Shown here in pieces: positions 1 to 50,486 of a DNA stretch of 64,000 nt. The notes under the pieces were generated by a model, which saw only the letters and a program-made list of their open reading frames with translations, made no database searches and was not told where the DNA came from. The stretch's first letter is position 1. Every line of letters begins with the position of its first letter. Both the position numbers and the translations under genes were made by a program. Source of the stretch: Octopus vulgaris (lineage: Eukaryota); assembly GCA_951406725.2 (NCBI GenBank), contig OX597815.1:107322001-107386000 (forward strand), written 5' to 3'.

Positions 1-812
1 AGTTGTAGTATTTTGAAACCAGGTTGTTGATCTTCTTCATGATGTGGTGGTCTATATTTGCGGGTATTTCACAATAGAAGGTTGTATCCTTCAGTTGGTC
101 CTCAACCAAATCCTTATAGTATTCGGTATCCATAATAACAATTGCACCACCTTTATCTGCTTGTTTAATTATTATGGTTTGATCGTTTTATATACGTTTA
201 CATGCAGACATCTCCGATTTATTGTTTGGCCTAACATTAGTATTGTGTCTAAGGGGAAATTTAGACAGGATATCAATGTATTGGTCAAGATAGTTATTTC
301 TTTTATAGATGGATAGGTTGTATTCCATCTAATGTGACTCTACTCAGAAGGCTGTAATATCATTTGACAGAAAACCCAGTATAAAGAATACATAAAACAA
401 AGCTGTGACTTTGTATACCTTTAATATGGCCACATTTATATACACAAGCTGAAGGATATTATGCAAATGATTTGATGTGTGGAGGCTACTGGTGTGTGGT
501 GTGAGAGAGCCAGTTAGGTTACGTCTTCATAATTTCATGTCCCAATGCAGAAAGAGAAAATCCTAAGGGCTCATGCCAGAATCTCACACTCTAACACCAT
601 CTAGTGTCAGTTTGTTTAACACTACTGTCAAGGGAGTATCTTCGCCTACACTTCCTTTTGGTAGGGTGAAATTTGATTTATTCTTTACATCAATCTCATT
701 ACATTTATTAATGAAGAATTCTACAAGTTGTAACTTACAACAGAATTTTTGGATATCCTCCTTTAGTTCTTTGTGGTTGACTGCTGGTACAGGTGTGAAA
801 TTCAGTCCTTTT
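1..812 (-). mobile_element. Penelope-like retroelement (PLE) ORF N-terminal fragment, decayed and interrupted
   Basis: Minus-strand translation LSKGLNFTPVP...DIQKFCCKLQLVEFF...KSNFTLPKG | RNNYLDQYIDILSKFP...IIIKQADKGGAIVIMDTEYY shows the KGLNF and ADKG motifs typical of PLE ORFs. One in-frame stop; runs off the window start; abuts (TATG)n. Confidence 0.85.
304..650. mobile_element. Probable solo LTR (Gypsy-like, 4-bp TSD) inserted in the PLE ORF
   Basis: Ends TATAG...CTACA (decayed TG...CA with short inverted termini), flanked by CTTT/CTTC. Removing it restores the PLE frame (CCA AAA GGA AGA AAT = PKGRN). Confidence 0.7.
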
Positions 813-825
813 GACAGAGGTTACT

Positions 826-47728: not shown

Positions 47729-48441
47729 CATGCATACACACATATGTGAATATATTTTTGTGCTTGTGTGTGTGCATGTGTATGTATATGTATATATGTA
47801 ATGCACACTCACATATATGTGTGTATATATGTATGTGTATATGTATGGATGCATGCAGGTATCTGTGAATGGTTAAGAAGTTCACTACACAACCATTATG
47901 TCTGGGTTTGATTCGACTGTGTGACATCTTGAGCTAATTTCCTATTTTCCACATTAATAAAGATGTTGAAAGTTAATAAACATGTCCAAAGTTGACAAAT
48001 ACTGAGTGAGAATGCTCTAACAATACTTATACATGCTAGTATTACCATTTTCTAGAAGAGGCATGGGCAACTTTTTCATGAAACAGGCTGCATAAAGACA
48101 TGACTAATCATGAGGTGGGTCATACCACTAAAATATTCAAGGTAATTTTTCCTTAGGCTTGCTGTTCAGAAAGTCCCACAGCCAACATGCAGCATGTGAC
48201 CCACAGTTTGCCAGTGACTGATCTAGAACAGTCTCAACTGGGGCCCATATGATCCTTAAGGGTCCACATAAGATTTGTTGTAAAAATTTATCAACAATAA
48301 ATTGATTATACTTCTACAATACACAAAATGTTTTAACAATTTTTTAAATACAATTCCTAATAATATCTAATTATAAAAATATATTATGGAGATGTACTTG
48401 CATAGCAAGTGACCTGATCTGAGATCGTGTGCTGAAATGAA

Positions 48442-48728
48442 AACAATTGCAACGTGGAAGGTGTTTATAAGCCATTTAAAAGGATACAAAAACCGTTAGA
48501 TTCACTTCAGCATTTACATTTAATTTGCCAAAATATTTTCATTGCTTTGAAACAGCGATCTTTTCACTGACAAAATTCCGTGCTGCATGCGGAAGTTTGT
48601 CAGTGAACAGGTTGCGGTCTCAAAGCGACGAAAATATTTTGGCAAATTAAATTTAAATGCTGAAGTGAATCTAACAGTTTTGTGTGTTTCTTAAATGGCT
48701 TATAAACAACTTCCACACTGCAATTGTT
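48442..48728. repeat. Imperfect palindrome (about 139-bp arms, 9-nt spacer); PLE-end-like insert 48384-48726
   Basis: AACAATTGC...TTCCG / CGGAA...GCAATTGTT; flanking duplication TTATAAAAATATA / TTACAAAAATATA. Confidence 0.9.
48596..48646 (+). ncRNA. Minimal type I hammerhead with G3-C8 swapped core (decayed mirror copy 48524-48574 minus)
   Basis: TTTGTCA GTGAACA G GTTGC GGTCTCAAA GCGAC GAAA ATAT TT TGGCAAA; 7-bp stem I, 5-bp stem II, palindromic stem III AATATT. Confidence 0.7.
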
Positions 48729-49157
48729 ACAAAAATATAAGAGGAGGTTTTTTAAGATCAAATGGCTATGGGGGTCTAGTAGAGTAAAAATAGGAATCAA
48801 AGGGGTCTATAACTGAAAAATGGTTGAGAAACATTGATCTAGAACATACCTATGTCTGTCCTCAAAGCTAATCTGTCAATGTCTTTACACAAATGGTTGA
48901 GCATTGCTCCAGCTGAGGCAATTACAAGTTGGATGATAGACACCTTCCTTAATGCTCATAGCATCTTTAATTCAACAAGTAGGTCAATGTAATTCCCAAT
49001 CTTTCACCTTAGTTTTTGCTCAACATTAAAATCAATTCAGTATGCTTTGTTGATAACAAGTATGTTATTGTCATTTGTTTTGTCACCAAAATTGATATCA
49101 GGTTTATTATGTTATCTGACGGTCTATCTATATGCTAAAGTTCTATAGTATATATAT

Positions 49158-49320
49158 AGGTGCAGGAGTGGCTGTGTGGTAAATAGCTTGCTTACCAACC
49201 ACATGGTTCCGGGTTCAGTCCCACTGCATAACACCTTGGGCAAATGTCTTCTACTATAGCCTCAAGCCGACCAAAGCTTTGTGAGTGGATTTGGTAGACA
49301 GAAACTGAAAGAAGCCTATC

Positions 49321-49392
<72 letters not shown>

Positions 49393-50367: not shown

Positions 50368-50486
50368 GCTTACAGCCATATCACATTGAAAACACCAGTT
50401 CTCATCCAATCACCAAAGTTAAGCAACATCGAGCCTAGTTGGTACTTAGATGGGTGACTGCTTGAGGAACCTAGGGGCTGTAAGCA
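50368..50486 (+). pseudogene. 5S rRNA pseudogene, full length (119 bp)
   Basis: GCTTACAGCCATATCACATTGAAAACACCAGTTCTCATCCAATCACCAAAGTTAAGCAAC...GTACTTAGATGGGTGACTGC...GCTGTAAGCA. Terminal helix GCTTACAGC/GCTGTAAGC; many CpG-type substitutions; solitary; no T-run terminator. Confidence 0.9.

What the first reader, a model, noticed from the sequence alone, without database searches (positions are those of the whole stretch)
48384..48728. Palindromic insert with a naturally swapped G3-C8 hammerhead core
Seen: core GUGAACA instead of CUGANGA, with a 7-bp stem I, 5-bp stem II and AAUAUU stem III; the mirror arm also has G3. Established: positions 3 and 8 form a Watson-Crick tertiary pair, so a double swap preserves the fold. 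Inference: a compensatory change indicating selection for catalysis; standard CUGANGA searches would miss this family.
Basis: partly seen in the sequence, partly recalled or inferred. Interest (0 to 1): 0.8.

Follow-up and report, generated by a model that had tools for sequence, protein, structure and literature searches.

The report
Swapped-core hammerhead in Penelope retroelement
This palindrome is a decayed two-copy fragment of a common jumping gene whose end carries a hammerhead-shaped RNA motif with two paired core letters swapped in the whole family, while its close relatives keep other correct pairs there, so the swap is likely a natural compensatory change; whether the RNA still cuts itself is untested.

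Summary
48384-48728 is a head-to-head duplicate of a ~205-nt unit: the terminal repeat plus ORF start of a Penelope-like retrotransposon (parent found: hammerhead, then a reverse transcriptase + GIY-YIG frame). G3-C8 is the family state: 5,350 exact G3 motifs; C8 in 2,946 of 3,189; no C3-G8 copy among 14 C3 copies. Related elements carry the motif at the same place with C3-G8 or U3-A8, and the nearest sister family (51% protein identity, same genome) has C3-G8. With positions 3 and 8 left free, all 30 motifs of other families were Watson-Crick. This supports selection on the 3-8 pair in the source lineage. It does not show catalysis: no assay, no copy-end or RNA-end signal at the predicted cut, and a related Penelope inserts without cleavage in vitro. 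This copy is probably inert (mirror arm G3-A8; read-through RNA folds into one long hairpin). Natural U3-A8 and the laboratory C3G/G8C mutant are published; I found no natural G3-C8 in print, but two key papers were unreadable. The scan noted this swap before on other copies in this genome and in another genome. New variant of a known kind.

The parts
48384..48728 (.). Whole insertion: head-to-head inverted duplicate of the terminal repeat (pLTR) of a Penelope-like element, in A/T-rich flanks
   Evidence: 42 of 42 inverted loci are head-to-head
48384..48441 (-). 58-nt one-sided 'tail'; continues the start of the parent ORF
   Evidence: 37 of 42 inverted loci have one long and one short arm
48386..48475 (-). 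First 30 codons of the parent ORF (MAYKHLPRCNCF...)
   Evidence: translation; same start runs on into the long frame in L328 and L331
48442..48588 (-). Left arm of the palindrome (long arm with the tail)
48524..48574 (-). Decayed hammerhead copy: G3 (48567) with A8 (48562), weakened stem II
48592..48728 (+). Right arm (short arm, ends about 30 nt into the ORF; ATG at 48695)
48596..48646 (+). Type I hammerhead motif with G3 (48603)-C8 (48608), inserted G 48610, stem II, GAAA, palindromic helix III, U17 at 48639 (predicted cut after it)

Best explanation
The insert is a decayed, head-to-head double copy of the terminal repeat of a Penelope-like retrotransposon, and its G3-C8 motif is that element's hammerhead, whose 3-8 pair was likely flipped from C3-G8 in the source lineage and which likely still self-cleaves slowly, as a dimer or with the element's protein, in the parent RNA but probably not in this copy. 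Shown: family state, link to the parent ORF, position between ORF end and next ORF start, pair states in relatives. Inferred: the element's protein started reverse transcription at two sites inside the ORF start (two fixed 3' ends, one-sided tail) on uncut RNA that began about 15-20 nt before stem I (probably the repeat's own transcription start), and inserted the copies in A/T- or (TA)n-rich DNA. Untested: cleavage and its rate.
For: Parent: hammerhead unit runs straight into the ORF (L328, L331); units flank a 777-aa frame in L277 and follow a 1,025-aa RT + GIY-YIG frame in L267. Family state: G3 59 of 60 and C8 54 of 60 arms; 76 of 78 and 78 of 78 in a sample picked by a pattern outside the motif; C8 2,946 of 3,189; no variant at 5% at either place in contigs of four organisms; 11 of 11 motifs found in 20 further ORF-linked loci, 84-98% identical to the youngest ORF, are G3-C8. 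Relatives: sister L269 C3-G8 (tree support 99/100), L283 and L286 C3-G8, L281 U3-A8, same position and layout; 30 of 30 motif entries of other families Watson-Crick with 3 and 8 free. Inserted nucleotide, G10.1-C11.1, palindromic helix III and U17 are usual in published Penelope hammerheads. C3G/G8C partly rescues a Penelope hammerhead in vitro.
Against: No cleavage assay. Only 1 of 123 arms starts at the predicted cut and microhomology explains it. In vitro a Poseidon element inserts equally well with dead hammerheads (PMC11167929), and published Penelope hammerheads cleave weakly. Within the family the core is no more constant than the spacer behind it (0 of 35 vs 3 of 48 variable columns, part of the spacer fixed by my pattern). 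G8 makes up 41 of 100 listed non-C8 copies (hand count), unexplained. Stem pairing in the five-family table (49 of 50 cells) was required by my descriptor. The tree is unresolved below the sister pair, so the direction C-G to G-C rests on parsimony; no motif was found in L284, L285, L287, L289.
Confidence: 0.65

Rival explanations
1. Same element and same homologous fold, but the G3-C8 motif no longer cuts at a useful rate; the 3-8 pair is kept because the fold serves something else (protein binding, translation start, promoter), or the motif merely rides along.
For: Hammerhead mutants do not impair insertion in vitro; G8C costs 10^5-fold and C3G restores only part; no genomic footprint of the cut; excess G3-G8 copies, including two older ORF-linked ones, L272 and L335.
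Against: All catalytic-core letters (U4 G5 A6 A9, GAAA, U16.1) persist over subfamilies while loop II changes (5 of 9 columns) and across five families 41-51% identical in protein.
Confidence: 0.3
2. A MITE or foldback DNA element whose sequence resembles a hammerhead by chance.
For: Long inverted repeat in TA-rich flanks; no Rfam hammerhead hit.
Against: 36 of 78 loci are single arms, ends are asymmetric, 5' ends are truncated; the unit is the end of an RT + GIY-YIG element; homologous motifs with other pairs sit at the same place in relatives.
Confidence: 0.02
3. This particular palindrome has been adopted by the host as a functional hairpin RNA.
For: A read-through transcript would form a -180 kcal/mol hairpin; family sequence is present in RNA reads on both strands.
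Against: One of thousands of like copies, arms 13% apart with CpG-type decay; miRNA-model hits lie far below their gathering scores; reads cannot be assigned to this locus.
Confidence: 0.03

Closest known systems
[quoted passage not shown]
   Same: Type I, in the terminal repeat, extra nucleotide between 9 and 10.1, G10.1-C11.1, short palindromic helix III, often U17, pairs on opposite strands 100-700 bp apart, natural covariation at 3-8 (U3-A8).
   Different: 3-8 pair is G-C; none of the motifs listed in their Fig. S3 alignment starts with G3. Helix I is 7 bp.
PAc hammerhead and C3G/G8C mutant (Frangieh et al. 2024, PMC11167929; read: passages and first part of the main text)
   Same: Hammerhead near the ORF start; two internal RT start sites explain the one-sided tail; the double mutant has the same 3-8 pair and partly cleaves, with protein help.
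   Different: There G3-C8 is engineered, in a Poseidon element; here it is the natural state of a recently active family.
Natural core variants (Perreault et al. 2011, PMC3088659; read: passages)
   Same: Natural compensatory change at 3-8.
   Different: U3-A8 (two transitions); G3-C8 needs two transversions and is not in the passages seen.
C-terminal GIY-YIG Penelope-like elements, Nematis-like (Craig et al. 2021, PMC8557442; read: passages, section 12, supplement rows)
   Same: RT then GIY-YIG with a short CxxC linker, inverted 5'-truncated copy, one-sided tail, (TA)n targets.
   Different: Clade assigned by eye from the linker only; tail 58 nt against their 30-40; reference sequences were not in my tree.

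Membership tests
Type I hammerhead ribozyme | Helices I, II, III around the core in type I order | tested here: met
   helix III is the short palindromic kind
Type I hammerhead ribozyme | Core U4 G5 A6 A9 G12 A13 A14 A15.1-U16.1 H17 | tested here: met
Type I hammerhead ribozyme | Literal C3 and G8 (CUGANGA) | tested here: not met
   G3 and C8; 0 of 14 C3 copies have G8
Type I hammerhead ribozyme | Watson-Crick pair at 3-8 | tested here: met
   + arm and family consensus; not met in the mirror arm
Type I hammerhead ribozyme | Match to an Rfam hammerhead model | tested here: not met
Type I hammerhead ribozyme | Site-specific self-cleavage | not testable with these tools
   no assay; indirect copy-end test negative
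Penelope-like element (EN+) | Single ORF with RT and C-terminal GIY-YIG in the parent | tested here: met
   RT motifs read by eye; Pfam GIY-YIG E 4.6e-4, just under its cut-off
Penelope-like element (EN+) | pLTR-ORF-pLTR, inverted 5'-truncated copies, one-sided tail | tested here: met
Nematis clade | Placement in an RT tree with named reference elements | not tested
   only the short CxxC linker was compared by eye with published rows
Non-LTR retrozyme | Tandem direct repeats of a non-coding hammerhead unit | tested here: not met
   solo or inverted copies with a coding parent
MITE | Fixed symmetric terminal inverted repeats, no RT parent | tested here: not met

The most novel reading that the evidence does not exclude
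A natural, well-cleaving G3-C8 hammerhead: the lineage crossed the double-transversion gap through a mobile G3-G8 stage (the excess G8 copies being its trace), and context (U17, inserted G, long helix I, the element's protein) restores activity that laboratory double mutants only partly regain; more such families lie hidden from CUGANGA searches.
Probability: 0.2. Interest if true: 0.65.

Novelty: new variant of a known kind. Interest (0 to 1): 0.45.

Why it matters
What the hammerhead does for Penelope elements is open: it cleaves weakly and was dispensable for insertion in vitro. Two recently active sister families in one genome, one C3-G8 and one G3-C8, with a U3-A8 relative, are a natural experiment showing that the tertiary 3-8 pair is kept in living lineages, and give ready constructs to test whether cleavage is what is selected. 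Practically, hammerhead descriptors should treat 3-8 as a pair, since more than 5,000 motifs in this genome alone are missed by CUGANGA and by Rfam.

Tried and rejected
Rfam: no hammerhead hit. RNA: no RNA holder listed by the index; raw reads of three RNA runs of organism B lay on both strands (1,662, 1,283, 1,140 reads) with no pile-up of ends at 48639/48640; ordinary RNA-seq of a multi-copy family cannot show a cut, so this is no evidence either way. Copy 5' ends at the cut: 1 of 123. First guess at the parent, the 781-aa family found by the GIY-YIG search, was wrong: it carries its own U3-A8 motif; the unit near L094's ORF is a separate insertion. Splice-acceptor reading of the sharp 5' start (493 copies have an acceptor-like upstream extension): disfavoured because copies keep the AG and often the base before it (6 of 10 solo heads), with no shared upstream exon; a transcription start is preferred but not shown. 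G3-G8 as an ancestral subfamily: G8 copies lie in several loop backgrounds, partner arm G8 in one and C8 in one; older ORF-linked copies are mostly C8; unresolved. Viral contigs: no useful relatives. Papers: Lunse et al. on Penelope hammerhead dimers and Przybilski and Hammann 2007 on 3-8 exchanges were not held; either could contain or bear on natural G3-C8; supplement file 1 of PMC4209133 was not searchable. PMC6155905 and PMC2920678 passages and part 1 of 5 of bioRxiv 2026.07.22.740005 added nothing on G3-C8.

Full report
Observation. The two arms are inverted repeats with 122 of 140 columns identical. The mirror arm has G3 but A8 and a damaged stem II. Folded alone the arm gives stems I and II but is not unusually stable (z -1.17); the whole insert folds into one hairpin of -180 kcal/mol, which would hide either motif in a read-through RNA. 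Rfam has no hammerhead hit.

Family state. The insert belongs to a large repeat family of the 2.8-Gb genome G000. Exact patterns give 3,189 G3 motifs with a 9-nt loop II and 2,161 with an 8-nt loop, against 0 in reversed controls. In the first set 243 lack C8, so 2,946 of 3,189 have it. C3 occurs in 12 and 2 copies, all with C8, none C3-G8. In 60 arms chosen by overall likeness G3 is 59 and C8 54; in 78 arms chosen by a pattern outside the motif, 76 and 78. Contigs of four coded organisms show no variant at 5% at either place. This fixes G3-C8 as the source state. It is not evidence of selection, since copies inherit it.

Anatomy and parent. Of 78 loci (12 duplicates or segmental repeats removed from 90), 36 are single arms and 42 inverted; all 42 are head-to-head and 37 pair a long arm with a short one, the difference being the 58-nt tail. 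Craig et al. describe just this for Penelope-like insertions (PMC8557442, passages). [quoted passage not shown] In L328 and L331 the unit runs directly into the ORF start, and the window's long arm encodes the same first 30 codons. L277 has units on both sides of a 777-aa frame. The short CxxC linker resembles published Nematis rows by eye; the clade was not tested. Young copies are 97-98% identical in the last 900 nt of the ORF with identical motifs; of 20 further ORF-linked loci 11 yielded a motif, all G3-C8, down to 84% ORF identity, while two other older loci (L272, L335) have G8.

Covariation. The nearest relative is a young family in the same genome, 51% identical in protein, sister with support 99/100; its motif is C3-G8 with compensatory stem changes. 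Of 17 metagenome relatives, L283 and L286 have C3-G8 and L281 U3-A8 at the same place between ORF end and next start; L282 and L291 show altered C3-G8 motifs by eye; the rest gave none. With 3 and 8 free, a scan of 298 loci (1.14 Mb, overlapping, so entries are not independent) found 30 entries of other families in 11 helix III classes, 13 C-G and 17 U-A, none mismatched; mismatches occurred only in single copies of this family. Stems were required by the descriptor, so the 49 of 50 paired cells in the five-family table are partly circular; the 3-8 result is not. C3-G8 as the ancestral state is parsimony on a tree unresolved at its base.

Mechanism. Inferred: RNA starting just upstream of stem I (50 of 123 arms begin within the first five unit positions) is bound by the element's protein, reverse-transcribed from two sites within the ORF start as shown for PAc (PMC11167929), and inserted as single or inverted copies. 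The copies come from uncut RNA: 1 of 123 arms starts at the cut. In the parent's tandem RNA two motifs would pair through the palindromic helix III and cut after U17, as proposed for Penelope hammerheads (PMC4209133; PMC6765202 passages). The laboratory C3G/G8C mutant is partly active, and one paper reports, without data, that context changes G3-C8 activity (PMC3884650).

Against. No assay exists. PAc inserts with dead hammerheads. Within the family only loop II varies between subfamilies (5 of 9 columns against 1 of 42 in core and stems, that one keeping a U-G pair), but the spacer behind is about as constant as the core. G8 is 41 of 100 listed non-C8 copies against 9 for A8 (hand count), unexplained.

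Novelty. Hammerheads in Penelope repeats and natural U3-A8 are published. Seven full-text searches on 3-8 variants and the alignment in Fig. S3 of PMC4209133 showed G3-C8 only as an engineered mutant; two relevant papers were not held. Earlier notes of this scan report the same swap on other copies and in another genome; I saw them after reaching this reading. Verdict: a real, family-wide natural variant in a known setting; this copy ordinary and probably inert; cleavage likely but untested.

Noticed in passing
window 50368-50486 (+): 5S rRNA-like sequence (Rfam 82 bits) directly followed by a short repeat that also lies at 49153-49326; likely a 5S pseudogene or a composite SINE.
   Followed up: partly
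window 8-817 (-): Fragment of a Penelope-like ORF 38-53% identical to the 781-aa family.
   Followed up: no
L106:2745-5088; L077-L085, L089: Young, abundant Penelope-like family with an intact 781-aa frame and a U3-A8 hammerhead; several more U3-A8 families in the same genome (L102, L213, L031, L215, L231).
   Followed up: partly
L269:4892-4899; L281:2497-2504: Both related motifs have C instead of the normally fixed A9, followed by an inserted G; L269's helix III is not a perfect palindrome.
   Followed up: no
L282:4973-5020: Motif with GAAU in place of GAAA and a matching A at 16.1, i.e. a U15.1-A16.1 variant, read by eye.
   Followed up: no
G000 genome-wide: C8-to-G copies are far more common than C8-to-A (41 vs 9 of 100 listed); hot spot or minor G3-G8 source copies.
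   Followed up: partly
G000:C12:17161511-17161542 (-): One copy of this family reads U3-A8, a second Watson-Crick state; may be two chance changes.
   Followed up: no
L046, L062-L066: One inverted copy of the unit with the same flanks recurs at several places on contig 1, apparently carried inside a larger repeat.
   Followed up: no
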